This document shows positions 5,580-48,314 of a DNA stretch of 64,000 bases, in pieces. A model generated the notes under the pieces. The model was given only the letters and a program-made list of their open reading frames with translations. It was not told the DNA's origin and did no database searches. The stretch's first letter is position 1. Every line of letters begins with the position of its first letter. The position numbers were made by a program, and so were the translations under genes. The stretch covers positions 11,467 to 75,466 of the forward strand of contig JAHFON010000002.1 in NCBI GenBank assembly GCA_023261695.1, given 5' to 3'. The stretch comes from Candidatus Moraniibacteriota bacterium (GTDB lineage Bacteria > Patescibacteriota > Minisyncoccia > Moranbacterales > UBA1568).

Positions 5580-5594
5580 AGCGGTAAAAAATAT

Positions 5595-18129: not shown

Positions 18130-19947
18130 ATGAAAATAGTCAACCTGCTACTTTTGCTCGTGAGTGCCCTGCTCGCTTTGGTTATTATCAATGGCGGAAT
18201 TATTTACTACTTTAACAATCAAATGACGAGTGACAGCCGGGTAGTCAACTATGCCGGTATTATACGAGGGGCAACTCAGCGGGTCATCAAATTGGAATTG
18301 GCCGGAGATTACTCGCAGGCCGATGAACTGATCGCCGAATTAGATCAGATCATCAGCGGATTAAAAAACGGTGACAAGAATCTAAATTTACCTCAAGCGA
18401 GCGGTGACAAGTTTATAGCGGTTATAAATGAAGTAAGCGATACTTGGATTACTCTCAAGCAGACGCTCTATCAGACCAGACAGGATTCCGATTCAAGAAG
18501 CCGGCTTGTAGAAGAAAGTGAGGATTATTTTTATTTAACCAATCAAGCGGTAGGCGTTGCCGAAGAATTTTCTCGGAATAAAGTTACGAACTTGAAGACA
18601 GTCATTATTGTTTCCTCGATAATTTCTCTCGGTATAATTTCAGCAATGTGGGTGGTGATCAGAAGAAAAATCTTCAAGCCCCTAATCAATTTAGCCGAAA
18701 TATTGCCTAAAATAGCGGGCGGCGACTTGTCTCAAAGACTCAAGGTAGAATCAAATGACGAGTTTGGAATTCTGGCTTCTCTGTTTAATATTACGGCCAC
18801 TAAATTGCAGCAGTCGTATGAAAAAATAAAAGAGAAAACCGGCGAACTTTCCGTAAAAGTGGGGGAGCTCCAAAAATTTCAATTGGCCGTTGAGAATGCC
18901 AACGAGCACGTGATTATTACTGATGCCGACGGAAATATTTTGTACGTCAATCCCGCCGCTGAACGTATTACTGGTTATTCACGAAGAGAAAGCATCGGCG
19001 CCAGACCGTCGCTCTGGGGTAATCTGATGACAAAAGAATTTTACGCGAACCTGTGGAGGATTATAAGAGATGAAAAAAAAGTTTTCACCGGAGAAATTAC
19101 CAACCGCAGGAAATCCGGCGAGTTGTATCAGGCGATAGTGAACATCAGCCCTATTCTCGGCGCTGGCGGGGAAGTAAAATTTTTCGTCGGTCTGGAGCGC
19201 GATGTTACGCTCGAGCGCAATATTGACAAAGCCAAGACTGAGTTTGTTTCGCTCGCTTCGCATCAGTTGCGCACGCCGCTTTCCGCGATTAACTGGTATA
19301 CCGAAATGCTCTTGGCTGGAGACGCGGGCAAGATCAACGCGGTTCAGAAGAGATATTTGGAAGAAGTGTATCAGGGAGGCCAGCGGATGGTCGGGCTGGT
19401 CAATGTGTTTTTGAATGTTTCCAGAATTGAGCTGGGAACGTTTGTGATAGAACCGGAGCCGGTGAATTTGCAAGAAGCGGCTCAGATCGCGTTAAAAGAA
19501 TTGAGGCTGATTATCAGGGAGAAAAAAATAAAAGTCACCGCAACATACGACGCAAAACTGCCCAGTATACTGCTTGATCCAAAGCTCATTAATATTATTT
19601 TTCAAAACCTGCTTTCCAACGCGGTAAAATATACTCCAGCCGAAGGCGCCGTGTCACTTGAGGTGTCCCAAGATGAAAAGAATGCTATAATTAGAGTGTC
19701 GGATACGGGCTGTGGCATCCCTCGGAATCAGCAGGCCAAGATTTTTTCCAAACTCTTTCGAGCCGACAATGCGGCTTCCCAAGAAACCGAAGGGACCGGT
19801 TTGGGACTGTATATTGTGAAAGCCATTATTGACCGTTTGGGAGGAAGCATCCGATTTGAATCAGAGCAAGATAAAGGAACGACGTTTTTCGTAACCTTGC
19901 CGCTTGCGGGGATGGCCAAAAAAGAAGGAATTAAAACATTGGAATAA
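18130..19947 (+). CDS. sensor histidine kinase (TM - HAMP - PAS - HisKA - HATPase_c)
   Basis: Two TM segments, a HAMP-like linker, a PAS region, an H-box (SLASHQLRTPLSAI), and N/G boxes (SNAVKYT, GTGLGL). Confidence 0.8.
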   Translation: MKIVNLLLLLVSALLALVIINGGIIYYFNNQMTSDSRVVNYAGIIRGATQRVIKLELAGDYSQADELIAELDQIISGLKNGDKNLNLPQASGDKFIAVINEVSDTWITLKQTLYQTRQDSDSRSRLVEESEDYFYLTNQAVGVAEEFSRNKVTNLKTVIIVSSIISLGIISAMWVVIRRKIFKPLINLAEILPKIAGGDLSQRLKVESNDEFGILASLFNITATKLQQSYEKIKEKTGELSVKVGELQKFQLAVENANEHVIITDADGNILYVNPAAERITGYSRRESIGARPSLWGNLMTKEFYANLWRIIRDEKKVFTGEITNRRKSGELYQAIVNISPILGAGGEVKFFVGLERDVTLERNIDKAKTEFVSLASHQLRTPLSAINWYTEMLLAGDAGKINAVQKRYLEEVYQGGQRMVGLVNVFLNVSRIELGTFVIEPEPVNLQEAAQIALKELRLIIREKKIKVTATYDAKLPSILLDPKLINIIFQNLLSNAVKYTPAEGAVSLEVSQDEKNAIIRVSDTGCGIPRNQQAKIFSKLFRADNAASQETEGTGLGLYIVKAIIDRLGGSIRFESEQDKGTTFFVTLPLAGMAKKEGIKTLE

Positions 19948-24094: not shown

Positions 24095-25513
24095 ATGTCT
24101 ATCAAATTTTTTTTTCGTAAGAGATTCTTTTTTTTGATAGGGGTTGTTTTCGCGACCATGTCGCTTTCCGGTTGTATTTTCAAGCAAACCGCTCCAGAAC
24201 AATACAAAGTTAATTTGGAAGTGTGGGGGGTTTTTGATGACAGTGATGCTTACGCGGATGTTTTTAACCAGTACCGAAAAATCAATCCGTATATTGGAGA
24301 GATTAATTACCGCAAGCTTCCGCTGGAAACCTATAAAGACGACATTTTGAACGCTCTGGCGGCCGGCAAAGGGCCGGATATTTTTATGATTCGCAACGCG
24401 TGGCGCGGTTCTTTTGAAGACAAAATCGCGCCGGCGCCGGAATATCTGCTGACGGAAAAGCAGTATCGGGATGTGTTTGTGGACGTGGTGGCGGAAGATT
24501 TTATCGGCAATGGCAAGATATACGGCGCGCCGCTGTCCGCTGATTCTCTGGCGCTCTATTACAATAAAGATCTGTTCAACGCGGCGGGCATCGTGAATCC
24601 GCCGACCACTTGGGATGAGCTTCTTGGTGATATTTCAAAACTGAATAGGGTTGACCAGTTTGGTAATGTCGTTCAATCGGCTGTGGCGCTCGGTACGGCG
24701 TATAATATCAATCGTTCTATGGATCTTCTCACCGTATTGATGTTTCAAATGGGGTCATCTATTTTGCCGCCCGGGCAGAAACGCGTTGAACTGACCGATG
24801 AAAACAGCCGCAAAGCTCTGGAATTTTACACTCAATTTTCACGTATCAACTCCAATACCTATACATGGAATCCGAGCCTGCATTATTCTATCGATAGTTT
24901 TTATGAAGGGACGCTGGGTATGATGATAGATTATTCTTGGCATTTTGCCACTGTCAAACAAAAAAACTCCAAGCTGAATTTTGCCGTGGCGCCTCTGCCG
25001 CAATTTTCTGACGGTAAACCTGTGAACTTTGCCAATTATTGGGGATTCGCGGTAGCTAAAAATAAAGTTGCAGAAGATAAGCCGGGGCAGGCGGCGCCAC
25101 AGGGAGCGGTGAAACCAGATTTAGAAAAACAAAATTATTTGCGTATTCACGAGGCTTGGCAATTTTTGAATTATCTGACCTTGCCGCATCCCGACAACAA
25201 AATAACTTTACAAAACGGCATTGCCGGTACTACCAAGGAATTTACTTTGAGTTTTGATCCGGCGAAAAAATACCTGGAAAAAACTGACAAACCGGCGGCG
25301 CGCCGCGATTTGATAGAAGAACAGAAAAATGACGTCAGGCTGGCGCCTTTCGCGACGGGAAACCTGATCGCGAAAAATTGGTATCAGGGAAATATGGAAT
25401 TGGTGGAGGCAATTTTCGCGGAAATGATTGACAGCGTGAATAAAGGCGAGAAAAGTGTTTACGACGCTCTTACGATCACTACCAATCGCGTCAATGTGTT
25501 GACAAAGCAGTAA
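24095..25513 (+). CDS. ABC transporter substrate-binding lipoprotein (extracellular solute-binding family 1, sugar-type)
   Basis: Lipobox LSGC after a signal peptide. SBP_bac_1-like length and composition. The track ORF starts at 23801, but it overlaps the upstream MTase, and the Met at 24095 followed by a signal peptide is the likely start. Confidence 0.65.
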   Translation: MSIKFFFRKRFFFLIGVVFATMSLSGCIFKQTAPEQYKVNLEVWGVFDDSDAYADVFNQYRKINPYIGEINYRKLPLETYKDDILNALAAGKGPDIFMIRNAWRGSFEDKIAPAPEYLLTEKQYRDVFVDVVAEDFIGNGKIYGAPLSADSLALYYNKDLFNAAGIVNPPTTWDELLGDISKLNRVDQFGNVVQSAVALGTAYNINRSMDLLTVLMFQMGSSILPPGQKRVELTDENSRKALEFYTQFSRINSNTYTWNPSLHYSIDSFYEGTLGMMIDYSWHFATVKQKNSKLNFAVAPLPQFSDGKPVNFANYWGFAVAKNKVAEDKPGQAAPQGAVKPDLEKQNYLRIHEAWQFLNYLTLPHPDNKITLQNGIAGTTKEFTLSFDPAKKYLEKTDKPAARRDLIEEQKNDVRLAPFATGNLIAKNWYQGNMELVEAIFAEMIDSVNKGEKSVYDALTITTNRVNVLTKQ

Positions 25514-27409: not shown

Positions 27410-29236
27410 TTATTTTTCCACCTTGATAACTTTAATAAAATTGCCAGGATGGTTGCCGATGAAAAGTTGCCAGTCCGGATTTGAAACATTGTAGTATTTG
27501 TAGGCGGTGAGACCGGATTTCATTTCCCAGTTATCGTATTTGGACATATAGCGGATGCCGCCGCGGCGGGTAAGGACGTAGTAATCCGGCTTGATTTTTT
27601 CCTTGTCGAAAGTGTAGGCGGTTAAGCATCGGCCGACAAAAAATTCGCAGACACCATAATAATCCGACCAGATTGCGGAATTTTTGGCGTTTGGTAATGT
27701 ATTGAGATATTGAGCCGCCTCGTAGCCGCCATAGCCCCAGGCGTCATTGATGATTATCTTTTGCGGCAAAAGAAGGTTAGTGTAATTAAAATAAAATGGT
27801 CTGATGAAAATAATACTGACAACGGAGGCTATGAAAATAAGAGCAGTAATGAGAAGTTTACTTAAGGGATATTTTGCGAAACGTTTTGCAATATGCCAGA
27901 AGCCGAGAGCGGCGAGCACGGAGAAAATGGGGTAGAGCAGGATGGTATAGCGTACGGTGGCGAGGATATTGGAATGTAAAAGAATGCTGATATAAATGAG
28001 AATGAGAAGCGGCAAAAGAGAAGAGAGAAATAGATACTGATTGTTTTTAGAACGCAGGGTGTGTATCCAGAGGTTGCCTAATCCGAAGAGCGTGATGGGA
28101 GTAAGCGAAAAGACGAGCGGCGACCATTCAAGCAGAAAAGATTGAAAAGTATTGAGCGGTATTCCGTAATAGCGTGAGTTGGTGATGTTTTTAATGTCAA
28201 AAGGAATTTGAGTGAAAATGTTCCAGTCAGGAAACAGGTGGCGTGTGAGGATGACAAACGTGAAAAGAAACAGAAAGAAAGCTGGAATGACAAAAGCAAA
28301 GTGCAAATGTTTCCGGCAGAAGGCGCGTAGTTTGATCAGGAATCTACTGTGAAAAAAACAGGTGTCAATGAGGAAGAGTATAAGAGGAACACTGGCGGCG
28401 ATAAGCGGAGGTGTTTTATCGGGAATGGTAGCGAAAAAAAGTCCGAGAGTTTTGGGGTTGAGCAGAATAGCCGGGAGGAAAAAACAGAGGATGCCAAGCG
28501 CTACGATTGCGATGATGCTGAAAGAGAAAAGTTGGCGGAGAAGCGTTGCGCGCGGTGTCGGCAGTTCCTCATCAGGAGCAATGAGGAAATAGGCAGTGAT
28601 AAGGAGAAGGTAAAACGGCAGAAGAATGATGGCGGTATATTTGGAGAGAAGAGCTAGCCCGGTAAAGAGAGCGGCTAGTGCGATATATTTTTTTTCCGGA
28701 TATTTGAGGACGACGAGGAAAGAAAAAATCCCGATACTGCCGAAAGACCAGAGCAGCGCATCCGGGTTTACGATTTGTGAAATACCGAGCAAGATAGGCG
28801 AGAGAGCGATGAGCATAGTGCTCCAGAGAGCGATCCAAGAATTGGTGAGCTTGGAGATGAGGAAGAAGCAAAGAATCAAAAGTACCCCGTTGATAAGCAG
28901 AATAGGAAGACGAAAGGCAAAATAGAGAGTTTCTGTTTCGTCTGTTTTGCAGGTATAAAATTTATCATCATTTTGTTCACAATGTTTTGTAGAATCTGGG
29001 TGCAAGAAATATCCGATTCCCGATACCAGTGCCAGACTGACGCCGGGTTTGTCGTTGATGAAAGTTTTTTTCCACTTGTGTTCCGCAATGGCCTTCCAGT
29101 ATTGCGGGATGCGTTCATAGACCCAATAATGTTCGTCGGCCGTGATGAACTGCGTGACGTGATACAAGCCAAAAGCAAAATAACTCACAAGTATGAGTCC
29201 GAGAAACAGGTGTCTGATGTTGAAGAATGAGTGCAT
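27410..29236 (-). CDS. polytopic membrane glycosyltransferase, GT39/ArnT-PMT-like
   Basis: 608 aa with more than 10 TM helices and a C-terminal soluble domain, typical of GT-C family 39 enzymes. Family assignment is from architecture only. Confidence 0.45.
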   Translation of the reverse strand: MHSFFNIRHLFLGLILVSYFAFGLYHVTQFITADEHYWVYERIPQYWKAIAEHKWKKTFINDKPGVSLALVSGIGYFLHPDSTKHCEQNDDKFYTCKTDETETLYFAFRLPILLINGVLLILCFFLISKLTNSWIALWSTMLIALSPILLGISQIVNPDALLWSFGSIGIFSFLVVLKYPEKKYIALAALFTGLALLSKYTAIILLPFYLLLITAYFLIAPDEELPTPRATLLRQLFSFSIIAIVALGILCFFLPAILLNPKTLGLFFATIPDKTPPLIAASVPLILFLIDTCFFHSRFLIKLRAFCRKHLHFAFVIPAFFLFLFTFVILTRHLFPDWNIFTQIPFDIKNITNSRYYGIPLNTFQSFLLEWSPLVFSLTPITLFGLGNLWIHTLRSKNNQYLFLSSLLPLLILIYISILLHSNILATVRYTILLYPIFSVLAALGFWHIAKRFAKYPLSKLLITALIFIASVVSIIFIRPFYFNYTNLLLPQKIIINDAWGYGGYEAAQYLNTLPNAKNSAIWSDYYGVCEFFVGRCLTAYTFDKEKIKPDYYVLTRRGGIRYMSKYDNWEMKSGLTAYKYYNVSNPDWQLFIGNHPGNFIKVIKVEK

Positions 29237-29308: not shown

Positions 29309-29776
29309 ATGATCTTACCATACAAGTCAGCACGTTATTTTTTCTTGAGCCTTTTTATATTTTCTTTCACGCTGATGGCTTTACCATTACCGGCGGGCGC
29401 TGCGATAGTTCCTTGTGGACGATCAAGTAACGACGCTCCTGCTGAAGAAAAAAAACCTTGCACTATTTGTCACTTGGTGGTCGGCGGTAATAGAATTATT
29501 AAGTGGGGTTTGACAGTAATGACTTTTATAGCGATAGCCGTGATCGTGGCGATGGCGATTTTTTATATCGTGTCTACCGGCAACGAGGGAATGATGCAGA
29601 CCGCGAAAGGCGGCATTACGGCGGCGCTGGTCGGTTTCGCCATAATGCTGGCGGCGTGGCTGATCGTGAATACGACATTGAGAATTTTCACGGCCACAAT
29701 TCCTGGTCTTACGGTCTCAAGTACAGGGTTTAGCTTTACCTGCGATACCACTTCTTCAGCTGGCTCGGCTCAATAA
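29309..29776 (+). CDS. TrbC/VirB2-like (T4SS-pilin-like, PF18895-type) small membrane protein, paralog 1
   Basis: Signal peptide plus two C-terminal hydrophobic helices with a conserved loop (YIVSTGNEGMMQTAKGGI). Shared with four downstream paralogs. Confidence 0.55.
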   Translation: MILPYKSARYFFLSLFIFSFTLMALPLPAGAAIVPCGRSSNDAPAEEKKPCTICHLVVGGNRIIKWGLTVMTFIAIAVIVAMAIFYIVSTGNEGMMQTAKGGITAALVGFAIMLAAWLIVNTTLRIFTATIPGLTVSSTGFSFTCDTTSSAGSAQ

Positions 29777-29859
29777 AATGATATGCGCAGATATTAAATA
29801 TGAGAAAAATTGAGATTTCTCTACATAAGGAGCGATATTTGAAGTAGCACTACGCGGGT

Positions 29860-30153
29860 ATGTTTGATTTTTTCCTCATAGATACGGCATTCGCCGCCGG
29901 TTCCATTACCAACGCGCCGCAAGTAGCGGATATACTTTTGAACATATTGTATTTTTTATTGTCAATCGTGGGAATTGTTGCTATAATCGGGTTGGTAGTG
30001 GCGGGGGGGTTTTATTTGACGGCCGGCGGCAATGAGCAGCGTATAACTCTTGCAAAACGCGCGTCGCTCGCGTCCGTCATCGGAGTCATTGTGGCGTTGG
30101 GAGCGCTGGTGATAGTCAGCCAGTTGACGAAGTTTTTCTTGATGCCACTTTGA
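29860..30153 (+). CDS. TrbC/VirB2-like pilin-family protein, paralog 2
   Basis: LNILYFLLSIVGIVAIIGLVVAGGFYLTAGGNEQRI...VIGVIVALGALVIV matches the paralog consensus. Confidence 0.55.
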   Translation: MFDFFLIDTAFAAGSITNAPQVADILLNILYFLLSIVGIVAIIGLVVAGGFYLTAGGNEQRITLAKRASLASVIGVIVALGALVIVSQLTKFFLMPL

Positions 30154-30229
30154 TTTCGCGCGATGTTTCTCGTCTGGTTCGCTTACGAATTATAAAATCA
30201 AAAATAAAACAGAAAGGAGGTGAGACGTT

Positions 30230-30598
30230 ATGAAACAAATTAGACAAGTATTATATGCGGCTTTCGCGGTTGCTCTTACGACAGCCCCGGTTGTGGCGAG
30301 CGCTGACTGGAATTCGGGGTTTCAGAATGCTCAAGGTTCACAATTGCCGAGAGGTAGCATTTATAACATTATTCAGTCAACGATGAATTGGCTTTTGGCC
30401 ATTCTCGGTTTTATCGGCATTATCGGGTTTGTGATTGCAGGTATCCTCTATCTCACCGCCGCCGGCAGTGAAGAGCAAATAGAAAAGGCTAAGAGCGCTA
30501 TGTTGTATTCCATCATTGGTATCGTAGTTGCACTTCTCGGTTTCGTCATTATCAAAGCAGTAGACACCTGGTTGCAAGGCAGTGCGTCGGCATTCTAA
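30230..30598 (+). CDS. TrbC/VirB2-like pilin-family protein, paralog 3
   Basis: RBS aaaggaggtgagacgttATG. NWLLAILGFIGIIGFVIAGILYLTAAGSEEQIEKAK... Confidence 0.6.
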   Translation: MKQIRQVLYAAFAVALTTAPVVASADWNSGFQNAQGSQLPRGSIYNIIQSTMNWLLAILGFIGIIGFVIAGILYLTAAGSEEQIEKAKSAMLYSIIGIVVALLGFVIIKAVDTWLQGSASAF

Positions 30599-30725
30599 AT
30601 TATCGCCGAGCATTTATTTTTTGGACAGGTGCGAATAAAATACCTTGCAGTAAACTAGCGAGGTATTTTATTTTTTCTCAAAATAGAGTAATATGGAAGC
30701 ACGCTGAAGTTGTAAAAACAAAAAT

Positions 30726-31124
30726 ATGTTGCGTTTGTCTTTTTTGAGTTTATTGTTTTTGGCGGGCGTGGTTTTTTTGTCTTTTAATATTCCTGTGGTT
30801 GAGGGTTCCGTCGTCTGTACTGGAGCTCAAGATATAGGACCAGGTGGCATCTGCATTCCCAATAATACGGGGCTCGCCGATAAGCCGGCGGCGGATATTC
30901 TCAAGGGGCTGATGAATTGGCTTTTAATCATTTTGGGATTTATCGGGATTATAGCGTTTGTGATTTCCGGCATGCAGTATCTTTTGGCGGCAGGCAGTGA
31001 GGATATGGTAGAAACAGCCAAGCGCAATATGTTGTATTCTATCGTGGGTATTGTCGTGGCGCTCTCTGGTTTGGTGATTATTATGGCGATTAATCAGGCA
31101 CTCCGCGGTAGCAGTGCGTTTTAA
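30726..31124 (+). CDS. TrbC/VirB2-like pilin-family protein, paralog 4
   Basis: NWLLIILGFIGIIAFVISGMQYLLAAGSEDMVETAK... is nearly identical in pattern to paralog 3. Confidence 0.6.
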   Translation: MLRLSFLSLLFLAGVVFLSFNIPVVEGSVVCTGAQDIGPGGICIPNNTGLADKPAADILKGLMNWLLIILGFIGIIAFVISGMQYLLAAGSEDMVETAKRNMLYSIVGIVVALSGLVIIMAINQALRGSSAF

Positions 31125-31143
31125 GAGTCTAAAGTTTTAACTT

Positions 31144-31905
31144 ATGTTTGCTGAAAAGTTTTTCGTTTGGGATAAATACTTATTGCTGGCGCTTGCTGTT
31201 TTTTTAGGCGTTCTTTTTTTCGCACCGCGCGTTTTGGCTGGGACCTGTGCGAGTGCTGGTGGACAATGTGTGGCGAGCGGAACTCCTTGTCCTTCTGGTA
31301 CGAATCCGTCAGGCGCGTGTACTATTGCTGATGATAATTTTACTGGTACTTGTTGTAAGAATCCAGCTCCCCCTAGCGGAGGCGGTAGTATAGAGTTTAA
31401 AAATCCTCTCGCGTACGATACAGTAGAAGGGGTGCTGAACAGCATCCTTGGCACATTGAGGAGCATAATCGTAACTCTGTCTCTGGTCTTCATTGTGGTG
31501 GGCGCGGTGATGTATATCGTATCGTCGGGCAATGACAAGATGATGACACTGGCCAAAGGCGCCATCACGGCCGCTATGATCGGGCTGGCTATTGGCTTGG
31601 CCGCCCCGTCCTTCCTCCTGGAAATCGGAAAAGTGCTCGGTTGGGGAGCTGTGAATAGCGGTCCTGTAGCCGACGCGCTCACTTTGTCTCAAATTGCTCT
31701 CAATGTGCTGGACTTCTTGCTTTCCATCGTGGGTATTTTGGCGATTATTATGCTGGTAGTGGGCGGTATAATGTATCTGACGTCCGCCGGTGATGAGGAT
31801 CGTATGGAGACCGGCAAGAAAATTGTGATTTATTCAATTGTCGGTATATTTGTGGCTTTGGCTGCTTTAGTGATTGTGAAACAGATTACCAATTTTTTCG
31901 TATAA
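31144..31905 (+). CDS. TrbC/VirB2-like pilin-family protein with Cys-rich N-terminal region and two tandem pilin domains, paralog 5
   Basis: Two copies of the ...VGAVMYIVSSGNDKMMTLAKGAI... / ...VGGIMYLTSAGDEDRMETGKKIV... module within one 253-aa ORF. Confidence 0.55.
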   Translation: MFAEKFFVWDKYLLLALAVFLGVLFFAPRVLAGTCASAGGQCVASGTPCPSGTNPSGACTIADDNFTGTCCKNPAPPSGGGSIEFKNPLAYDTVEGVLNSILGTLRSIIVTLSLVFIVVGAVMYIVSSGNDKMMTLAKGAITAAMIGLAIGLAAPSFLLEIGKVLGWGAVNSGPVADALTLSQIALNVLDFLLSIVGILAIIMLVVGGIMYLTSAGDEDRMETGKKIVIYSIVGIFVALAALVIVKQITNFFV

Positions 31906-31978: not shown

Positions 31979-32923
31979 TTACCTGAAATTTGCCCGCAAG
32001 GTTTGCGGGTCAATTGTTTTCTCCAACACCTCCTTGGGCAAGGCGTAAGAGACTTCCACTTTACCCGTGCTCTCAACTTCAAGGCTTTCGTTCGGTGGCG
32101 TTCCATTCATCCGAACGTAGCTGGTTATATCTTGATCTTCTCCATTGATCCGGATGTATTGTTTTTCCGGAATGGAGAATTTTCTTCGCCCTGGTTTTAT
32201 GCCGCCCAACTTTTGCGGCTGGAGCGATTTCACCTCGAACTCCACTGTTTTGGAATAGGTGAGGTCGCTGACGATATTATTCAGTGGTCGCGGTTTTTCT
32301 TCCGCGAACACTTGGTGGAATGACGCCAGCGCTCCGATCACAAGTACCGCGATTGTAATGCGCCGGTACCATTTAGTTGCGCCACCCAAAGCAAATGACC
32401 ACATTCCAATACCAGCTAGAGCGGGAAAGAAAACCAGCGCTGCGGTCGGATGGTTGACTTGCCATAACTCCAACACCGTCCCGGTCGCGATGGCTACTAT
32501 TAGGAAATGCGCCGGTAGTTTAAGCGCCGACACACAAGCTTGCCATCCTTGCTTCGCAATTTCACTGATCTGGATGTCTGGGAATACCACCGCTTCATCC
32601 AGGAATATATTTCTCCACGACCAGTTGTAACCAACCAGTTTCCACCCAGCGCCAGCTCCAAACATTGTCAAGAATGTTGCTGGTGTTGACATATAGAATC
32701 CCAGCACAAGCATAATCGCCATGTTGACGATAGCGATTATCAGCGGAGCCCCCGCATAACTCATCATCACATCAATGACAATGACGAGTATCAGGGATGG
32801 CACACCAATCCAGTACAGCGTCTTGTGCAACCTGACTGCTTCTTGATAGATTTCCTCTGGGGTATTAGTTGCCCCAGTGAAAAATCTTCTCGCCCGTTCT
32901 CTAGCAGTAGCAGTAGTAGGCAT
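31979..32923 (-). CDS. hypothetical polytopic membrane protein
   Basis: Multiple TM helices. No motif recognised. Confidence 0.4.
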   Translation of the reverse strand: MPTTATARERARRFFTGATNTPEEIYQEAVRLHKTLYWIGVPSLILVIVIDVMMSYAGAPLIIAIVNMAIMLVLGFYMSTPATFLTMFGAGAGWKLVGYNWSWRNIFLDEAVVFPDIQISEIAKQGWQACVSALKLPAHFLIVAIATGTVLELWQVNHPTAALVFFPALAGIGMWSFALGGATKWYRRITIAVLVIGALASFHQVFAEEKPRPLNNIVSDLTYSKTVEFEVKSLQPQKLGGIKPGRRKFSIPEKQYIRINGEDQDITSYVRMNGTPPNESLEVESTGKVEVSYALPKEVLEKTIDPQTLRANFR

Positions 32924-32958
32924 AGCCTCCTCCCATTAGTTATAATTTTGTCGTTTCG

Positions 32959-33915
32959 TTAATGGAACAAAATGCCAGAAAGGATCGTTAAGAATGCCAC
33001 CCCCACTATAATCGTTATAATTCTTCTGCTTCTGGGTGTTATTCTTTTTCGATCGCCTGTTCGGATTCGTCTTGCGCGGCGTTCCTCACGTGCTTGCAAA
33101 TGCTGGAGACGTAATTTTTGCAGTTGTTTTTCCGAGCTTCGTGTATGTCGCTTCCCAATTCGCTCGTATGTTTTTCCGAGCCGGAAGCGCAGCACTTCTT
33201 CGAGGCCAGCCTCCAATGTTTTTTCGGCCTCTTCTTTGATTTGTTGGCGCATCTTGCCCGTTGTTAGGAACCCGTCAGCCTCCAGCGAATCAATCACCGA
33301 AGCGATAGCTTGAGCTTCGGTTACATTTACATTTATCTGGGCTGACACCAACCCGGCAAGACGTTTGAGATATAAAATCCTCAAATCCTTGTCGGTGAAG
33401 CGCGGATCGTTTTTACGGATCACAGTTTCCTGAGGTCCATCCGACTTTCCCGGTTTCTTTTCGTCACGTTGAGCTTTGGAGGCGCCGCTAGCCCCTTTAT
33501 CTTGATCTGGCGGGACCTGTGCTTTTTTTGTGACGACTTCCTCTGTCACCCGATTGGGCATAATGAGGACGCCGACACGAAACGAGTCTACACGCCTACC
33601 CCGATCTTCATCATCGCGACGTTTCATTTCCGCGACGAGTTTCTGTATGACGCTGAAAGTACCAGCGTCCACAAGGGTCATCATGGCCTGCCAATAGCTG
33701 TCGTCCACTTTTGTGAACTTTTCCGTAAGCAGACCTTTTGGAAGAGTGTCGTCGCTTTTGATTTCAGACGACGCTTTAACACCCTGCCCTCTTCCTCTGC
33801 TAAATAGTCCATCCAGCCCTTTGATGCCGAGTATATTCATCCAACCTCCGACATCTCCGGCAACGTCTAGGGTCCCACTTACAAACTCCAGTATTTTTTT
33901 TACGAAGCCAAACAT
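32959..33915 (-). CDS. hypothetical protein
   Basis: ORF track. Charged, low-complexity C-terminal half. Confidence 0.35.
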   Translation of the reverse strand: MFGFVKKILEFVSGTLDVAGDVGGWMNILGIKGLDGLFSRGRGQGVKASSEIKSDDTLPKGLLTEKFTKVDDSYWQAMMTLVDAGTFSVIQKLVAEMKRRDDEDRGRRVDSFRVGVLIMPNRVTEEVVTKKAQVPPDQDKGASGASKAQRDEKKPGKSDGPQETVIRKNDPRFTDKDLRILYLKRLAGLVSAQINVNVTEAQAIASVIDSLEADGFLTTGKMRQQIKEEAEKTLEAGLEEVLRFRLGKTYERIGKRHTRSSEKQLQKLRLQHLQAREERRARRIRTGDRKRITPRSRRIITIIVGVAFLTILSGILFH

Positions 33916-42199: not shown

Positions 42200-43051
42200 A
42201 TGAAAAAAAATAAACCAAAAAATTTAGCGATTTTTGAAGGCAAAAGAGTGCGGCGGATTTGGGATGAGAAAAAGGAAATGTGGTATTTCTCTGTAGTGGA
42301 TATTGTGCAAGTTTTAACCGATCAGCCGAATTATCAATTAGCGAGAAATTATTGGAAAGTGCTAAAAAATCGCTTAAATAAAGAAGGGAGTGAAACGGTT
42401 ACAAAATGTAACCGGTTGAAAATGGAAGCAGAGGACGGAAAATTAAGAGAAACAGATACGGCTGATGTTGAAACATTATTACGCCTAATTCAATCTGTTC
42501 CCAGCCCAAAAGCCGAGCCGATTAAGTTATGGCTTGCCAAAGTCGGTTATGAAAGGATACAGGAAATAAATGATCCGGAAAAAGCACTCAATCGTAGCCG
42601 CGAATACTGGCAAAAAATGGGGCGAAGCGAGAAGTGGATTCAGCAAAGGATGATGGGGCAGGAGATACGGAATAAATTGACGGATTATTGGAAAAATAAT
42701 GAAGTTAAAGAGCAAAGTAAATACGCGATTTTGACGAATATAATCCATCAGGAATGGAGCGATATTTCAGTGAAAGAACATAAAAATTTGAAAAGCTTGA
42801 AAACGGAAAATCTGCGCGATCATATGACGGACGCGGAGCTGGTTTTTACGGCATTGGCGGAATTGTCCACGCGCCAAATCGCCGAAACAATGAAGGCAAA
42901 AGGTTTTGAAGAAAACAAGATTCCTGCCAAAAAAGGCGGAGCGGTTGCCAAGAATGCCAGACTGGAATTGGAGCAAAAGACCGGCAAAAAAATCGTGAGC
43001 GGCGGTAATTTCAAATCATTGCGAGAGCATAAGAAATTAAAAGGCAAATAG
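42200..43051 (+). CDS. DinD-like / Bro-N domain protein (DNA-damage-inducible protein D family)
   Basis: The N-terminal Bro-N-like region (KRVRRIWDEKKEMWYFSVVDIVQVL) and the C-terminal KNLKSL...TELVFTALAELSTRQIAE...KGG pattern resemble E. coli DinD. Confidence 0.5.
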   Translation: MKKNKPKNLAIFEGKRVRRIWDEKKEMWYFSVVDIVQVLTDQPNYQLARNYWKVLKNRLNKEGSETVTKCNRLKMEAEDGKLRETDTADVETLLRLIQSVPSPKAEPIKLWLAKVGYERIQEINDPEKALNRSREYWQKMGRSEKWIQQRMMGQEIRNKLTDYWKNNEVKEQSKYAILTNIIHQEWSDISVKEHKNLKSLKTENLRDHMTDAELVFTALAELSTRQIAETMKAKGFEENKIPAKKGGAVAKNARLELEQKTGKKIVSGGNFKSLREHKKLKGK

Positions 43052-43859: not shown

Positions 43860-43933
43860 GCGGGAGTAGCACAATGGTAGTGCACCTGCCTTCCAAGCAG
43901 GGTACGCGGGTTCGATTCCCGTCTCTCGCTCCA
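43860..43933 (+). tRNA. tRNA-Gly (anticodon TCC) with encoded CCA
   Basis: Hand-folded. Acceptor GCGGGAG/CTCTCGC (one G-T pair), anticodon stem CCTGC/GCAGG with loop CTTCCAA, T-arm CGGGTTCGATTCCCG, 3' TCCA. Confidence 0.8.
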
Positions 43934-43936
43934 TAA

Positions 43937-43973
43937 AAACACAGGAGTCCCGCTAAGGACTCCTGTGTTTTAT
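43937..43973 (+). terminator. rho-independent terminator after tRNA-Gly (aacacaggagtcc...ggactcctgtgtt + TTATT)
   Basis: A 13-bp perfect stem. Confidence 0.6.
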
Positions 43974-44245
43974 TGAGCTCAATTCTAAATTTTGCACGAA
44001 CCTACTACGAACGGGAAACTGACCTCGAAAGCGGAAGTTGTTTCGCTGCCGCTCGTCACCCAAAAGAAAAGTTTTGTTCGCTTTTTCTGATGGGCGCGCG
44101 CCCGAGTTTTCTTTCAAAAAGGAAAAGTCAGTTTTTCTGGACTGTTCTGCTCTTTGGAGCAGAGTGGCGTGGCCGTCTGCTTATTCCAGTATACCAGAAT
44201 ATCTAAAGTTTAGATATTTACTTTCCGTATATATGCTGATAGTAT

Positions 44246-44467
44246 ATGGACAAGACAATACAGACAAAAGAATACGCACGATTTATCGAGAAATTGCACA
44301 AAGCAAGGCTTGAGGCTAGTTTGAAACAGATCGAGGTTGCCAAGAAGCTCAAGCGTCCGCAATCCTATATTTCTCGCGTGGAATCCGGGGAGTATCGTCT
44401 TGATATTCTTGAGGTGAAGCGATTTGCAAAGATTTATGGAAAGAGCGTTGATTATTTTGTGAAGTAG
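44246..44467 (+). CDS. XRE-family helix-turn-helix transcriptional regulator
   Basis: HTH_3 pattern LKQIEVAKKLKRPQSYISRVESGE. 73 aa. Confidence 0.75.
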   Translation: MDKTIQTKEYARFIEKLHKARLEASLKQIEVAKKLKRPQSYISRVESGEYRLDILEVKRFAKIYGKSVDYFVK

Positions 44468-44468
44468 C

Positions 44469-45110
44469 ATGATTACAAAAGTCATCACAGATAAGGATGG
44501 TGAAAGATACATAGGTATCTGTAATCACTGCGGTAATAATACTTCTCAAAAAGTATTGTTTACACATATTGGGTCTGAAATCGCATATATACCAAATGGG
44601 GATGAAGTCAGTTTTGAAGTTGAATATCGACTCACAGAATGTGGGACTTGCGAAAATATATCGCTTTATGGAAAACCGGAATTTGATGATCATCTCTTCG
44701 GTCACGTGCTCTATCCACGACAAAGTAATTTATCAAGTTCTATCCCTGCAGAGATACGCAAAGTCTATGATGAAGCAAAATTAATATCAAAATTAGCCCC
44801 GAATGCCTTTGCAGTCCAGATTCGCCGCGCGCTGGAATTTCTTTGTAAGGATAAAAAAATAAGTGGGAAGAATTTAAGTGGACAACTAAAGGAGATGGCT
44901 AAACAGGGATTGATTCCACCTATCTTGGCAACGATGACTGATGGCATTCGTATCTTAGGTAATATTGGAGCACATGCCTCTAACATGGGGGTTAAATCAG
45001 AGGATATCTCTCTTATAGATGATTTTTTCAAAGCGATTTTAGAGTATGTTTATGTAGCCCCAAACAAGATAGAGGTTTTTAAGAAGCGTTTGGGCGAAAT
45101 AAAGAAGTAG
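44469..45110 (+). CDS. DUF4145-domain protein with N-terminal Cys4 zinc-ribbon-like region
   Basis: C-terminal IRRALEFLCKD...ILGNIGAHAS resembles DUF4145. N-terminal C..C(x~35)C..C. The start is 2 nt after the XRE stop codon. Confidence 0.5.
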   Translation: MITKVITDKDGERYIGICNHCGNNTSQKVLFTHIGSEIAYIPNGDEVSFEVEYRLTECGTCENISLYGKPEFDDHLFGHVLYPRQSNLSSSIPAEIRKVYDEAKLISKLAPNAFAVQIRRALEFLCKDKKISGKNLSGQLKEMAKQGLIPPILATMTDGIRILGNIGAHASNMGVKSEDISLIDDFFKAILEYVYVAPNKIEVFKKRLGEIKK

Positions 45111-45151
45111 TAGCAATTTTTTTATATCTCGTTTATTTTCCGAAAATAGCT

Positions 45152-45352
45152 ATGAGCGAACCATATACTTTCAAAAGTTTTCTCGGTCGGAATTGGTGGT
45201 TTCTTGTTATTGGGCTTTTTAGTGCCCTACGACAATCACAAAGAGAAAGTGTTTCAGGATCTATTGTGTTAGATGCGCTTTTTGGTGAGGGAATTATTTT
45301 GGTGATGATGTTTGCTTATTGGTTTGTTAGGTATGGCAGAAAATTAGAATAA
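45152..45352 (+). CDS. hypothetical small two-TM protein
   Basis: ORF with two hydrophobic helices. Confidence 0.3.
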   Translation: MSEPYTFKSFLGRNWWFLVIGLFSALRQSQRESVSGSIVLDALFGEGIILVMMFAYWFVRYGRKLE

Positions 45353-45356
45353 TTAT

Positions 45357-46019
45357 ATGGGGCTATTCAACTTTAACAGCTACAATCAGATTGAACAGGG
45401 ATTGTTAGACATATATTCTTTAATGTTGACAGCAAGTGGTATTGATAAAGAAGAGGCGAAAAAAATGATTGAGGATATGCTTAACACAGCTATCGAGCAA
45501 TCCAAAAAAGGGGGAAACTATTTTCTTCCTCAAAATTTAGGGAGCATTATTGTGGGGGAAGCCGAAACGGACGATCAGGGTATACAGAAATATACGCAAG
45601 CTCTTAGAGAAAGGATGCCCCAGAATGAGGGAATAAGCTTAGATGATATACGGATGTGGTGGAATTTGAATGATGTGGAGCGTCGTATGATACAAATGCA
45701 GGACATGGCTACGAAATCAACAGCGATGTTCGGATTTTTGAAATCAGGAATGGCTTCTAGCCCAGAGCAAGCAATTGCTATGGTTTGTAAAATTCATCCA
45801 GTCTACGGAAACCCGAATGACAATAGTCAGAGCAGTGGGGATGATCGGCCACTACCTTACGAGCTGAAAGATAGAATAAATATTTACATTCAAAAAAGGT
45901 CGGTCAAGGTTCGGAAGAGTACAAAAAAGAAATGGAGCAGTCATCCTCTTTCAATGCCTTGGTTCGAAAAGAAATTAGAAATGATAATTTATGATTGGTG
46001 GAAAAATAAACATTATTGA
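45357..46019 (+). CDS. hypothetical protein
   Basis: ORF track. 5-nt gap from the previous ORF. Confidence 0.4.
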   Translation: MGLFNFNSYNQIEQGLLDIYSLMLTASGIDKEEAKKMIEDMLNTAIEQSKKGGNYFLPQNLGSIIVGEAETDDQGIQKYTQALRERMPQNEGISLDDIRMWWNLNDVERRMIQMQDMATKSTAMFGFLKSGMASSPEQAIAMVCKIHPVYGNPNDNSQSSGDDRPLPYELKDRINIYIQKRSVKVRKSTKKKWSSHPLSMPWFEKKLEMIIYDWWKNKHY

Positions 46020-46135
46020 AGTACCTATTTGGATTATCGGCTGTGTTATTGCTTACAAAACAGACCTTTTTAAATTGGATGGGGCTTTTGGTATAGGAAA
46101 TAAAAAGGTATAACAACTCAAAATTTCAAAAATAT

Positions 46136-46858
46136 ATGAAAAAATGTCCATTTTGTGCAGAAGAAATTCAAGATAATGCTAAAAAATGCAGGTATTGTGG
46201 AGAATGGATTACAGCTCAATTGGGTAATAGTGATGATAAAGAAAAAACCAGTGACAGAGAAGTTAGGAAGTTAAATAAAGAATTCGTTTTTTGGAAAACT
46301 TTTGTGTGGTCAACGCTGGTTGTAGCGGTTATTTTTGTGATTCTGTTTGGATTTATTGGTGAACTTAAGAATGATACTACAGATGCATTACTTGGAATTT
46401 TAATTATTTCTGGGCTTATAGGGGTGTTAATTACTTTTATCATCAAGGGTCTTAGGGGTGGGAAAAAAGAGGATGGTCTCGAATTAACTACTGAAGAAAT
46501 TTCTAAATATAACGGACTTGCAGGCTGGCTTTTTTTGGTTGCACTTGGATTAGTTATAAGTTTTTTTAGAATTTCTTCAAATGTTTCTATGCTGAATGGT
46601 AGTATCGATAAGGTATTTAATGGGATTTTCGCAATATTTATTGCTTATGTTTTGTATCTATTCTTTGCTAAGAAAAAGAAGTTTAAGCCATTTTTTATTG
46701 CGTTTATTGTTATTAATTTATTATTTGCGACACTAGCTGTTATTACAGATAATAGTGGTGAAATAATGAAGGATTTTTTTGCATCAATAGTTTCTTTGAT
46801 GATCTGGATTCCATATATAATTAAATCAAAGCGAGTCAGGGCAACTTTTATAGAATAA
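46136..46858 (+). CDS. membrane protein with N-terminal zinc-ribbon (CPFC...CRYC) and four TM helices
   Basis: MKKCPFCAEEIQDNAKKCRYCGEW followed by hydrophobic helices. Confidence 0.5.
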   Translation: MKKCPFCAEEIQDNAKKCRYCGEWITAQLGNSDDKEKTSDREVRKLNKEFVFWKTFVWSTLVVAVIFVILFGFIGELKNDTTDALLGILIISGLIGVLITFIIKGLRGGKKEDGLELTTEEISKYNGLAGWLFLVALGLVISFFRISSNVSMLNGSIDKVFNGIFAIFIAYVLYLFFAKKKKFKPFFIAFIVINLLFATLAVITDNSGEIMKDFFASIVSLMIWIPYIIKSKRVRATFIE

Positions 46859-46888
46859 CTCGTTAGATTTTGAGGTAAAGTATTTATT

Positions 46889-47689: not shown

Positions 47690-47822
47690 AAGCTCCGATT
47701 TTAACTATTGCCATATTTATGTTAAAATATGCATAAAGAAATAACCACTTGTTTGTGGCTGTATTTATTGACAAATCCATTGGATTTACATAAAATAAAA
47801 AACCAAACTTAATACAACTACT

Positions 47823-48308: not shown

Positions 48309-48314
48309 AATTAT

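What the first reader, a model, noticed from the sequence alone, without database searches (positions are those of the whole stretch)
29309..31905. Tandem array of five TrbC/VirB2-like pilin paralogs, the last with an internally duplicated pilin domain
Five consecutive same-strand genes encode small proteins sharing a signal peptide plus two hydrophobic helices separated by a conserved short loop (…L.AAGSE(E/D)…AK…). The fifth (253 aa) carries a Cys-rich N-terminal segment and two complete copies of the module. The array is followed by two unknown membrane proteins and preceded by a GT39-family membrane glycosyltransferase that could glycosylate the pilins. No VirB4/VirB6/relaxase genes are nearby. 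The array therefore probably builds a surface appendage (episymbiont attachment?) and not a conjugation pilus. The mosaic sequence suggests ongoing gene conversion and diversification.
Basis: partly seen in the sequence, partly recalled or inferred. Interest (0 to 1): 0.6.

Follow-up and report, generated by a model that had tools for sequence, protein, structure and literature searches.

The report
Conserved VirB2-like pilin array, Moranbacteria
Five neighbouring genes in this ultra-small (Patescibacteria/Moranbacteria) genome encode six related copies of a small secretion-system pilin domain. This kind of array is already published for the phylum, but here the copies are old, individually conserved and specialised, not a churning variable set.

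Summary
Five same-strand ORFs at 29309-31905 carry six PF18895 (T4SS_pilin) hairpin domains, and the fifth ORF is a two-domain fusion behind a six-cysteine module.

The organism is a Moraniibacteriota (CPR/Patescibacteria) bacterium. Tandem arrays of divergent VirB2-like pilins in this phylum are already published: 441 arrays of 2-11 genes, and an essential array in Southlakia epibionticum. The core finding is therefore a new member of a known kind.

What this work adds:
- **Conserved locus.** The array sits in one fixed housekeeping neighbourhood (SBP/BipA ... NusA-PPase-trigger factor-ClpP) across Moranbacteria.
- **Positional orthologues.** Each paralogue matches the same-position gene in relatives at 64-81% identity, against 28-53% between types. 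There are no long identical DNA tracts, so "ongoing gene conversion" is refuted.
- **Expression signals.** Only the third gene has a Shine-Dalgarno site, a perfect AAGGAGGTGA that is unique among 47 window genes. A terminator hairpin follows it, and both features recur in relatives. This marks it as the likely major subunit.
- **SLT fusions.** Two relatives fuse the first pilin to an SLT lytic transglycosylase.
- **No T4SS genes nearby.** None lie in the roughly 78 kb I could reach.
- **Glycosyltransferase.** Its adjacency to the array is not conserved.

Most likely function: subunits of a heteromeric surface filament assembled by a T4SS encoded elsewhere in the chromosome. This is inferred, not shown.

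The parts
29309..29776 (+). P1, type-1 pilin (155 aa). It has a Sec-type signal peptide (...PAGA|AIVPCG) and then a single pilin hairpin. Conserved extracellular cysteines: VPCG, CxxCH just before helix 1, and F-x-F-x-C-D after helix 2.
   Evidence: ORF. PF18895 scores 24.0 bits, below the 26.6 cut-off. 46% identity to P5a, E = 9e-13. Orthologue alignment fixes the start codon and the Cys pattern. CxxC occurs in 58 of 59 homologues and is followed by His in 57.
29860..30153 (+). P2, type-2 pilin (97 aa). It has a short uncharged 12-residue leader and a single hairpin. Its closest paralogue is P5b (51%).
   Evidence: (37.8 bits). Same-position orthologues at 56-66% identity.
30214..30223 (+). 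Perfect Shine-Dalgarno sequence AAGGAGGTGA, 6 nt upstream of the P3 start codon.
   Evidence: It is the only one of 47 window genes with an SD match of 6 nt or more. The same AAGGAGGTGAGA sits before the P3 orthologue in L006-L009, and no comparable SD precedes the other pilin genes; the only partial match is a 6-nt AGGTGA before L007 g2.
30230..30598 (+). P3, type-3 pilin (122 aa), the candidate major subunit. It has a signal peptide (...VVASA|DW) and a single hairpin.
   Evidence: PF18895 43.1 bits. NCBIfam 'Mbov_0395 family pilin-like conjugal transfer protein' 39.0 bits against a cut-off of 40.
30633..30684 (+). Intrinsic-terminator-like hairpin (AATAAAATACCTTGC / GCGAGGTATTTTATT) followed by a T-run, between P3 and P4.
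   Evidence: Inverted repeat I5. The P3-P4 intergenic region folds at -30.1 kcal/mol. A hairpin plus T-run with a different sequence follows the P3 orthologue in L006, L007, L008, L009 and L020. The generic consensus scan did not list it.
30726..31124 (+). P4, type-4 pilin (132 aa). It has a signal peptide, a short 2-Cys N-terminal segment and a single hairpin. 63% identical to P3.
   Evidence: (37.4 bits; TrbC PF04956 E = 0.02).
31144..31905 (+). P5, a fused two-domain pilin (253 aa): signal peptide (aa 1-32), six-Cys three-stranded beta module (aa 35-72), disordered linker, hairpin a (aa 87-166), conserved external linker APSFL..GW, hairpin b (aa 174-253).
   Evidence: PF18895 72.8 bits with two stretches. 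676 homologues, of which the 120 best are listed and most of those span both hairpins. Alignment A1. AF2 model with pLDDT 80.2; the helices are mostly above 90.
31246..31356 (+). Six-cysteine module of P5 (C-x6-C-x6-C-x9-C-x10-CC), with beta-defensin-like spacing. Predicted to be extracellular.
   Evidence: Five of the six Cys positions (C35, C42, C49, C59, C71) are at least 90% conserved in A1; the sixth, C70, is not in that list. Three beta strands in the model. Pfam Defensin_beta or Defensin_beta_2 hit 9 and 7 of 47 orthologues at sub-threshold E down to 9e-6, but not the window protein itself. The module is found in 55 of 120 homologues and is duplicated in 14.
31979..32923 (-). U1, a polytopic membrane protein (314 aa, about 5 TM helices plus a C-terminal beta domain), convergent with the array. 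Function unknown. It evolves fast but keeps its position.
   Evidence: No Pfam or NCBIfam hit. Only 11 homologues. A minus-strand polytopic membrane gene occupies this slot in most relatives. AF2 pLDDT is 60 overall and above 80 only for aa 223-314. Foldseek gives nothing significant.
32959..33915 (-). U2, a charged 318-aa protein with one C-terminal TM helix. Function unknown.
   Evidence: No family hit. A similar-sized minus-strand gene with one or two predicted TM helices sits between the array and nusA in most relatives.
27410..29236 (-). PMT/PMT_2-family (GT-C, GT39-like) membrane glycosyltransferase, divergent from the array. Probably not a dedicated partner.
   Evidence: PF13231 41.9 bits and PF02366 36.9 bits. 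Present at this position only in the window, L006 and L008.

Best explanation
The five genes encode the subunit set of a heteromeric VirB2-like (PF18895) surface filament or channel lining in a Moranbacteria (Patescibacteria) cell.

**Topology.** Each protein inserts into the membrane as a helical hairpin. The N- and C-termini face outward and the short conserved G-(D/N/S)-E...AK loop faces the cytoplasm. P5 is a covalent heterodimer of a type-1-like and a type-2-like hairpin.

**Division of labour.** P3 is made in large excess because of its unique strong SD and the terminator after it, so it is the major subunit. P1, P2, P4 and P5 are accessory or minor subunits. Their outward-facing termini carry disulfide-rich modules: the six-Cys module of P5 and the CxxCH staple of P1. 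In relatives the P1 tail carries a peptidoglycan-cleaving SLT domain.

**Assembly and role.** Assembly is presumably driven by the chromosomal, relaxase-less MPF-FATA-type T4SS (VirB4, VirB6, VirB3/PrgI) that most Patescibacteria encode elsewhere, often near dnaA. The structure would serve host contact or exchange, not conjugation.

**Shown.** Family membership, fusion architecture, positional orthology, the expression signals, the SLT fusions, and the absence of T4SS genes within about 78 kb.

**Inferred.** Topology, filament formation, stoichiometry, dependence on a distant T4SS, and a role in host interaction.
For: **Family.** PF18895 scores are above the cut-off for P2-P5. There are two stretches in P5, and all 47 P5 orthologues tested hit the family. 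Near-threshold NCBIfam hits go to the Mycoplasma ICE pilin-like protein. The AF2 model shows two long helical hairpins, mostly at pLDDT above 90.

**Conserved, non-redundant set.** The locus keeps its gene order in 15 or more Moraniibacteriota genomes. Paralogues match same-position orthologues. Within-type identity is 64-81% and between-type identity is 28-53%. The fused gene is present in nearly every array.

**Major and minor subunits.** P3 alone has a perfect SD, in a genome where 36 of 47 genes have none. This is conserved in four relatives. A terminator-like hairpin with a different sequence follows the P3 orthologue in five relatives.

**Outward-facing decorations.** Every Cys-bearing segment lies on the predicted external side. 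P1 orthologues in L009 and L020 are fused to an SLT domain, which is the VirB1 activity (58 and 31 bits).

**T4SS link from the literature.**
- The pilin series inside the Southlakia T4SS cluster is essential (PMC10633639; PMC12857230).
- 441 arrays were found in 383 assemblies, and pilin genes lie near virB4 in 1135 of 1948 assemblies (PMC12102498).
- 13 of 15 Moranbacteria assemblies in the part of Table S1 I read have VirB4. One of them, GW2011_GWE2_35_2-, appears to be the source of the P5 homologue P0077, whose source name is cut off in the output.
Against: - No VirB4, VirB6, VirD4 or VirB8 gene lies in the window or in the flanks I could reach. None lies next to the single PF18895 genes in L024, L026 or L028. 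Whether this genome has a T4SS at all could not be checked.
- Direct similarity to genuine VirB2 is weak. hhalign gives 10% probability and E = 0.003, although the alignment is in register. TrbC PF04956 hits only P4, at E = 0.02, and 1 of 47 P5 orthologues. PDB sequence and fold searches give nothing significant.
- P1 and P2 lie upstream of P3, presumably on the same transcript, so the terminator alone does not set their levels.
- According to the papers read, no pilus built from these proteins has been seen in any Patescibacterium.
Confidence: 0.55

Rival explanations
1. The array is a repertoire of interchangeable pilin variants for antigenic or host-range variation. One or a few are used at a time, as proposed for VirB2 paralogues of Bartonella and Anaplasma, and suggested for Patescibacteria in PMC12102498. 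The first reader added diversification by gene conversion.
For: There are multiple divergent paralogues in tandem. The external termini vary in length and in their modules between relatives.
Against: Orthology is strictly positional, and within-type identity far exceeds between-type identity across five genomes. There are no identical DNA tracts; the best match is 73% over 171 nt. The same five types, including the fusion, are kept across deep divergence. Only one gene carries strong expression signals. I did not see invertible promoters or silent cassettes.
Confidence: 0.12
2. The proteins are small integral membrane proteins that never polymerise outside the cell. They might organise the membrane or anchor displayed domains such as the Cys modules and SLT. 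In this reading they are independent of any T4SS, and 'pilin' is only an inherited family name.
For: No T4SS genes lie within about 78 kb. Similarity to experimentally verified VirB2 is marginal. Fusions to SLT and Cys modules would also fit simple membrane anchoring. The locus sits in housekeeping synteny.
Against: In other Patescibacteria, members of the same family sit inside essential T4SS clusters. The NCBIfam near-hit is to an ICE conjugal-transfer pilin-like protein. A single very highly expressed member plus conserved accessory members is the pattern expected for filament subunits.
Confidence: 0.25
3. This is an ordinary conjugation pilin cluster belonging to an integrated conjugative element whose other genes lie just outside the window.
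For: Only the family name, and the near-threshold match to a Mycoplasma ICE pilin-like family.
Against: The neighbours are BipA, NusA, pyrophosphatase, trigger factor and ClpP, in the same order in genomes sharing only 40-60% protein identity. The 10 kb upstream and 4.6 kb downstream that I reached hold DnaG, RpoD, defence genes and two-component genes. I saw no integrase, relaxase or coupling protein, and no GC anomaly at the locus.
Confidence: 0.02

Closest known systems
VirB2-like pilin arrays of Patescibacteria: the essential series of about 6 pilins in the Southlakia epibionticum ML1 T4SS cluster SEML1_0006-0019, the TM7x 'Sec secreted array', and the 441 arrays surveyed in PMC12102498
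   Same: Same phylum and same Pfam family (PF18895). Tandem, sequence-divergent, structurally similar hairpin pilins on the chromosome. No relaxase context.
   Different: - This array is not inside or beside a T4SS cluster. It lies in a fixed housekeeping neighbourhood.
- It contains a conserved two-domain fused pilin with a six-Cys module.
- The top paralogue identity (63%) is above the published maximum (54%).
- The papers I read do not mention positional orthology, the SD and terminator marking of one gene, or the pilin-SLT fusions.
Tandem virB2 paralogues of Rickettsiales (Anaplasma, Ehrlichia, Neorickettsia) and of Bartonella
   Same: Several virB2 copies in tandem. In Rickettsiales they are separated from other scattered virB genes in a reduced genome of an obligate symbiont (this point is from my own knowledge plus the titles). 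The comparison itself is made in PMC12102498.
   Different: Those are diderm MPF-T systems with bona fide PF04956 VirB2, and they are interpreted as antigenic variants. Here the cell is monoderm-type, the family is PF18895, and the evidence points to fixed, specialised types.
VirB2/TrbC/TraA conjugative pilins (A. tumefaciens T-pilus, F-pilus)
   Same: Size and plan: a leader, two hydrophobic helices and a short polar loop. The profile alignment to Ti-plasmid VirB2 is in register.
   Different: Profile similarity is not significant (10% probability). PF04956 scores are below threshold. There is no adjacent virB1/B3/B4, as seen in L029 and L030. Known pili are homopolymers of one pilin plus a VirB5 tip. 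I found no report of a fused double pilin.
Mbov_0395 family pilin-like conjugal transfer protein of Mycoplasma ICEs (NCBIfam NF045849)
   Same: It is the best NCBIfam match for all five proteins (P3: 39.0 bits against a cut-off of 40). It is also a small hairpin protein of a monoderm MPF-FATA-type system.
   Different: All scores are below the curated cut-off. That protein is ICE-borne and single-copy, whereas these genes are chromosomal and arrayed.

Membership tests
Pfam PF18895 T4SS_pilin | HMM score at or above the gathering threshold (26.6 bits) | tested here: met
   P2 37.8, P3 43.1, P4 37.4 and P5 72.8 bits, with two stretches in P5. P1 scores 24.0, just under the threshold. It is homologous to P5a (E = 9e-13), and its orthologues reach 26.6-27.9 bits.
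Pfam PF18895 T4SS_pilin | Architecture: a leader, then two hydrophobic helices joined by a short polar loop | tested here: met
   Alignment of the six domains. AF2 hairpins at residues 94-126/131-164 and 181-213/218-252. P2 has only a 12-residue leader.
TrbC/VirB2 pilin (PF04956; verified conjugative pilins) | Significant sequence or profile similarity to verified VirB2/TrbC | tested here: inconclusive
   PF04956 hits only P4, at E = 0.02 and 15.5 bits against a cut-off of 27.9, and 1 of 47 P5 orthologues. hhalign against Ti-plasmid and Acetobacter VirB2 gives 10% probability and E = 0.003, in register. The PDB profile search finds no pilin.
TrbC/VirB2 pilin (PF04956; verified conjugative pilins) | Encoded beside virB1/B3/B4 or an equivalent mating-pair-formation operon | tested here: not met
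   No such gene appears among the window ORFs scanned or in the reachable flanks. Contrast L029 and L030, where virB1-B2-B3-B4 are contiguous.
TrbC/VirB2 pilin (PF04956; verified conjugative pilins) | Polymerises into an extracellular pilus in a VirB4-dependent way | not testable with these tools
   This needs microscopy and genetics.
Patescibacterial VirB2-like pilin array (as defined in PMC12102498) | Two or more PF18895/VirB2-like genes in tandem, or separated by one non-pilin gene, in a Patescibacteria genome | tested here: met
   Five contiguous genes. The closest homologues and syntenic loci are named Moraniibacteriota or Moranbacteria.
Patescibacterial VirB2-like pilin array (as defined in PMC12102498) | Paralogues within an array are strongly divergent (published mean 25%, maximum 54%) | tested here: met
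   Identities range from 20 to 63%. The P3-P4 pair is slightly above the published maximum.
Patescibacterial VirB2-like pilin array (as defined in PMC12102498) | The genome also encodes the MPF-FATA-like VirB4 T4SS | not testable with these tools
   Only about 78 kb of this genome could be reached. Indirectly, 13 of 15 Moranbacteria assemblies in the part of Table S1 I read are VirB4-positive.
Conjugative element (ICE or plasmid) pilin cluster | Relaxase, coupling protein, VirB4, integrase or attachment sites close by, with variable genomic location | tested here: not met
   The locus sits in housekeeping synteny that is conserved across many genomes. None of these genes was detected.
Gene-conversion or antigenic-variation cassette array | Long identical or near-identical DNA tracts between copies, and paralogues clustering by genome instead of by position | tested here: not met
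   The best tract is 73% over 171 nt. Best hits are positional. Within-type identity is 64-81% against 28-53% between types.
Beta-defensin-like six-cysteine module (PF00711/PF13841) | C-x6-C-x4-C-x9-C-x6-CC spacing, a three-stranded sheet, and an HMM score above threshold | tested here: inconclusive
   The window P5 has C-x6-C-x6-C-x9-C-x10-CC, and the model shows three strands. The window protein gets no Pfam defensin hit. 9 and 7 of 47 orthologues hit at E down to 9e-6. PDB beta-defensins score E of about 1.5. Convergence cannot be excluded.
GT39/PMT protein O-mannosyltransferase acting on the pilins | PMT-family membership of ORF 27410-29236 | tested here: met
   PF13231 41.9 bits and PF02366 36.9 bits, both above their cut-offs.
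GT39/PMT protein O-mannosyltransferase acting on the pilins | Conserved genomic linkage with the pilin array | tested here: not met
   Adjacent only in the window, L006 and L008. Absent from that position in L007, L009 and the more distant loci.

The most novel reading that the evidence does not exclude
The array encodes a purpose-built, multi-subunit host-breaching filament. A P3 homopolymer shaft would carry fixed minor subunits: a covalent double pilin (P5) tipped with a beta-defensin-like membrane- or lipid-binding module, and a disulfide-stapled CxxCH pilin (P1) that in some lineages directly carries a lytic transglycosylase. Such a structure would let a VirB2-type pilus from a monoderm epibiont cut through the host cell wall and open a conduit for nutrient or macromolecule exchange. 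It would be the first heteromeric VirB2-family pilus with major and minor pilins, and the first fused pilin dimer.
Probability: 0.2. Interest if true: 0.75.

Novelty: new member of a known kind. Interest (0 to 1): 0.4.

Why it matters
The T4SS and its pilin series are among the few machineries shown to be essential for the epibiotic life of a Patescibacterium, and what they do is, in the field's own words, 'completely unknown' (PMC11665869).

This locus does not reveal a new kind of system. It does give testable structure to the problem in a different class (Paceibacteria/Moranbacteria):
- The paralogues are ancient and individually conserved. That points to a defined heteromeric assembly and away from antigenic variation.
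- One gene is marked as the major subunit.
- One member is a natural covalent dimer, which constrains how subunits can pack.
- The fusions to SLT and to disulfide-rich modules suggest what the outward-facing ends do.

These are concrete hypotheses for cryo-ET, proteomics, and genetics in tractable relatives.

Tried and rejected
- **Solved structures by sequence.** A profile of the P5 family against the PDB gave only chance-level hits: TARP gamma subunits at E of about 0.1 and beta-defensins at E of about 1.5.
- **Solved structures by fold.** Foldseek of the P5 model against the PDB gave no hit at E of 0.001 or better. Long helical hairpins carry too little information.
- **Profile against genuine VirB2.** hhalign of the CPR pilin profile against VirB2 fetched from a Ti plasmid and an Acetobacter plasmid gave 10% probability. 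I treat this as inconclusive.
- **R388 trwL as a second reference.** The accession is not in the plasmid collection.
- **U1 as a possible VirB6-like channel protein.** It has no family hits and only 11 homologues. The AF2 model has pLDDT 60, with the membrane part below 55. The best Foldseek E is 0.011, and the PliG-like matches have an rmsd of about 10 Å. Nothing usable came of this.
- **Generic promoter and terminator scan of the locus.** Counts were no higher than in shuffled sequence, and the scan missed the P3 hairpin. I relied on direct folding and on cross-species recurrence instead.
- **VirB4 beside more distant single PF18895 genes (L024, L026, L028).** None was found. The neighbours were PNPase, CCA-adding enzyme, and glycosyl hydrolases or amidase.
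- **Gene conversion.** Rejected.
- **Dedicated pilin glycosyltransferase.** Rejected as a conserved partner.
- **P1's CxxCH as a haem c site.** Considered, but I know of no cytochrome c maturation system in this group and could not check the genome. Disulfides or metal binding are more likely.
- **Literature.** I found no paper describing fused VirB2 pilins or defensin-like modules in Patescibacteria. The library does not cover all journals.

Full report
**1. Observation**

The window holds five consecutive + strand ORFs: 29309-29776 (P1, 155 aa), 29860-30153 (P2, 97 aa), 30230-30598 (P3, 122 aa), 30726-31124 (P4, 132 aa) and 31144-31905 (P5, 253 aa). Against Pfam-A, P2-P5 match PF18895 'T4SS_pilin' above the gathering score (37.8, 43.1, 37.4 and 72.8 bits; cut-off 26.6). 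P5 matches twice.

P1 scores 24.0 bits, just below the cut-off. It is still a clear family member: 46% identical to the first half of P5 (E = 9e-13). NCBIfam's best match for all five is the Mycoplasma ICE 'Mbov_0395 family pilin-like conjugal transfer protein', always below its cut-off (P3: 39.0 against 40).

The six hairpin domains fall into two groups, P1/P5a and P2/P3/P4/P5b. Identities range from 20% to 63%. An HMM built from the six domains finds no further copy in the 64 kb.

Three details need correcting:
- P2 has only a 12-residue uncharged leader.
- The flanking glycosyltransferase and the two unknown membrane proteins are on the opposite strand.
- Public gene calls truncate P1 to 133 aa, whereas orthologue alignment supports the 155-aa start.

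**2. Organism and context**

The nearest homologues and syntenic loci are from Candidatus Moraniibacteriota/Moranbacteria, within Patescibacteria/CPR. The window is ordinary chromosome: IF-2, CCA-adding enzyme, BipA, NusA, inorganic pyrophosphatase, trigger factor, ClpP, iPGM, RNase Y, a tRNA synthetase, a P-type ATPase and six tRNAs. NusA, pyrophosphatase, trigger factor and ClpP are named from their sequences and from homologues in relatives; I did not scan them against Pfam.

None of the 38 window ORFs I scanned is a VirB4, VirB6, VirD4, VirB8 or relaxase homologue. Overlapping assemblies extend the view about 10 kb upstream (DnaG, RpoD, Fic, a methyltransferase) and about 4.6 kb downstream (two-component genes, FIST) with the same result. 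GC content at the locus is unremarkable.

**3. What is already known**

The literature tools show that the phenomenon is published.
- Wang et al. [quoted passage not shown]
- Quiñonero-Coronel et al. 2025 (PMC12102498) searched 3,035 Patescibacteria genomes with PF18895 and PF04956. They reported 441 VirB2 arrays of 2-11 genes in 383 assemblies. Mean identity within arrays was 25% and the maximum was 54%. Relaxases were mostly absent. Pilin genes lay near virB4 in 1135 of 1948 assemblies.
- A 2025 FEMS review repeats this (PMC12857230).
- A PNAS perspective calls the role of the T4SS 'completely unknown' (PMC11665869).

**4. What the comparative data add**

*(a) Fixed locus.* A scan of GTDB species representatives returned 23 loci. 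Across Moraniibacteriota the order is: methyltransferase, solute-binding protein, (BipA), (PMT), 3-6 single-domain pilins plus one two-domain pilin, two minus-strand membrane-protein genes, then NusA, PPase, trigger factor and ClpP.

*(b) Positional orthology.* In the four closest genomes each window paralogue's best match is the gene at the same position, at 56-82% identity. Over five genomes, within-type identity averages 64-81% and between-type identity averages 28-53%. At the DNA level the best paralogue match is 73% over 171 nt. The duplications are old and each type is kept, which contradicts ongoing gene conversion and argues against interchangeable variants.

*(c) The fusion is a conserved family.* P5 has 676 detectable homologues. 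The 120 best are listed, and most of those span both hairpins. Invariant residues lie in both hairpins and in the external linker (APSFL...GW). The AF2 model (pLDDT 80.2) shows a signal helix, a small three-stranded Cys-rich module and two long helical hairpins. With a cleaved signal peptide, the topology places the module, the inter-hairpin linker and the C-terminus outside and both loops inside. P5 would then be a covalent heterodimer of a type-1-like and a type-2-like pilin. This topology is inferred.

*(d) One gene is marked for high expression.* Among 47 window genes, 36 have no SD match and none but P3 has more than 5 nt. P3 has a perfect AAGGAGGTGA. The same motif precedes the P3 orthologue in L006-L009, and no comparable SD precedes the other pilin genes; the only partial match is a 6-nt AGGTGA before L007 g2. 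A strong hairpin plus T-run follows P3. Hairpins with different sequences follow the orthologue in L006, L007, L008, L009 and L020. I infer that P3 is the major subunit and that P4 and P5 are expressed at lower levels.

*(e) Decorated outward-facing ends.*
- P1-type proteins conserve VPCG...CxxCH before helix 1 and an aromatic-x-aromatic-x-C motif after helix 2.
- In L009 and L020 the P1 orthologue is fused at its C-terminus to an SLT lytic transglycosylase (PF01464, 58 and 31 bits). This is the enzymatic activity of VirB1.
- The P5 six-Cys module has beta-defensin-like spacing and draws recurrent sub-threshold defensin hits in orthologues.

*(f) The PMT gene is not a conserved partner.* It lies next to the array only in the window, L006 and L008.

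**5. Mechanism**

The best-supported reading is a heteromeric VirB2-like filament or channel lining. P3 would be the shaft subunit, and P1, P2, P4 and P5 would be fixed accessory subunits that display disulfide-rich or enzymatic modules. A T4SS encoded elsewhere would assemble it for host interaction, not for conjugation.

The T4SS link rests on three things: the literature, the family assignment and the SLT fusions. It is not shown for this genome. 13 of the 15 Moranbacteria assemblies in the part of Table S1 I read are VirB4-positive.

Similarity to experimentally verified VirB2 is weak. hhalign gives 10% probability, PF04956 scores are below threshold, and there are no PDB hits. So 'works like VirB2' is better supported than 'is a VirB2'.

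The main rival holds that these are membrane-resident anchors that never polymerise. It cannot be excluded (confidence 0.25). The variant-repertoire reading (0.12) and the conjugative-element reading (0.02) are disfavoured.

**6. Verdict**

The pilin paralogues, the fusion and the non-conjugative context are right. Gene conversion is refuted, the glycosyltransferase link is weak, and the array type is already published.
- Interest is moderate. The conserved fused pilin, the positional orthology, the major-subunit signature and the pilin-SLT fusions are useful new details for an open question, but they do not amount to a new class of system.

Noticed in passing
window 29309-29776 (P1), motif at aa 51-55; homologues P0132-P0196: P1-type pilins carry a near-invariant CxxCH just outside helix 1: CxxC in 58 of 59 homologues, followed by His in 57. 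They also have a VPCG Cys and a C-terminal Cys. CxxCH is the canonical haem c attachment motif, but two disulfides or a metal site are more likely in a lineage not known to mature cytochromes c.
   Followed up: partly
L009 7070-8143; L020 2-757; L016 4986-6695: In some relatives the first pilin of the array is fused at its C-terminus to an SLT lytic transglycosylase (PF01464, 58 and 31 bits). In L016 the same position carries several N-terminal Cys modules and a C-terminal extension with a lysozyme-like 'GIWQIN' motif that gets no Pfam hit. The window's P1 lacks any such extension.
   Followed up: partly
window 24095-25513 (+), and the gene upstream of the array in L013, L019, L021-L023, L025: An orphan SBP_bac_1/8 solute-binding protein, with no adjacent permease, is the conserved upstream neighbour of the pilin array. 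In the more distant relatives it abuts the first pilin gene directly, on the same strand.
   Followed up: no
window 31979-33915 (-): A polytopic membrane protein (U1) and a tail-anchored charged protein (U2) fill the gap between the array and nusA. A similar minus-strand pair occupies this slot in most relatives, but the sequences diverge so fast that only 11 homologues of U1 are found. No family or fold could be assigned.
   Followed up: partly
window 673-6776 and about 10 kb upstream (L003): A cluster of defence-type genes. Inside the window: Schlafen/AlbA_2 with HATPase_c_4, a ResIII helicase (897 aa) and RmuC. Upstream of the window: Fic, RhuM, an N6/N4 methyltransferase and GIY-YIG.
   Followed up: no
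window 43860-48800: A low-GC stretch (0.31-0.39 against about 0.46) begins right after tRNA-Gly(tcc) at 43860-43933. It encodes DUF4145, a zinc-ribbon/DUF2569 membrane protein, a SocA/Panacea antitoxin and several ORFs with no family; a Bro-N protein (42200-43051) lies just upstream of the tRNA. It looks like an integrated island.
   Followed up: no
window 59880-61877 (-): A 665-aa protein with three lamin-tail domains and a PKD domain, so a probable surface or adhesin protein. Nearby are a DUF4012 protein (55259-56770) and an Amidase_2 peptidoglycan amidase (63065-63799).
   Followed up: no
window 18130-19947 (+): A histidine kinase whose N-terminal sensor is a PilJ-type domain, followed by HAMP, PAS, HisKA and HATPase domains.
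   Followed up: no
window-wide, 47 gene starts: The genome makes almost no use of Shine-Dalgarno sites: 36 of 47 genes have no match of 4 nt or more to AAGGAGGTGA. This makes the perfect 10-nt site before P3 stand out.
   Followed up: yes
P5 homologues P0004, P0006, P0016, P0056, P0073 and others; L008 7948-8637: The six-Cys module is mobile within the family. It is duplicated in 14 of 120 P5 homologues and also appears at the C-terminus of the P1 orthologue in L008.
   Followed up: partly
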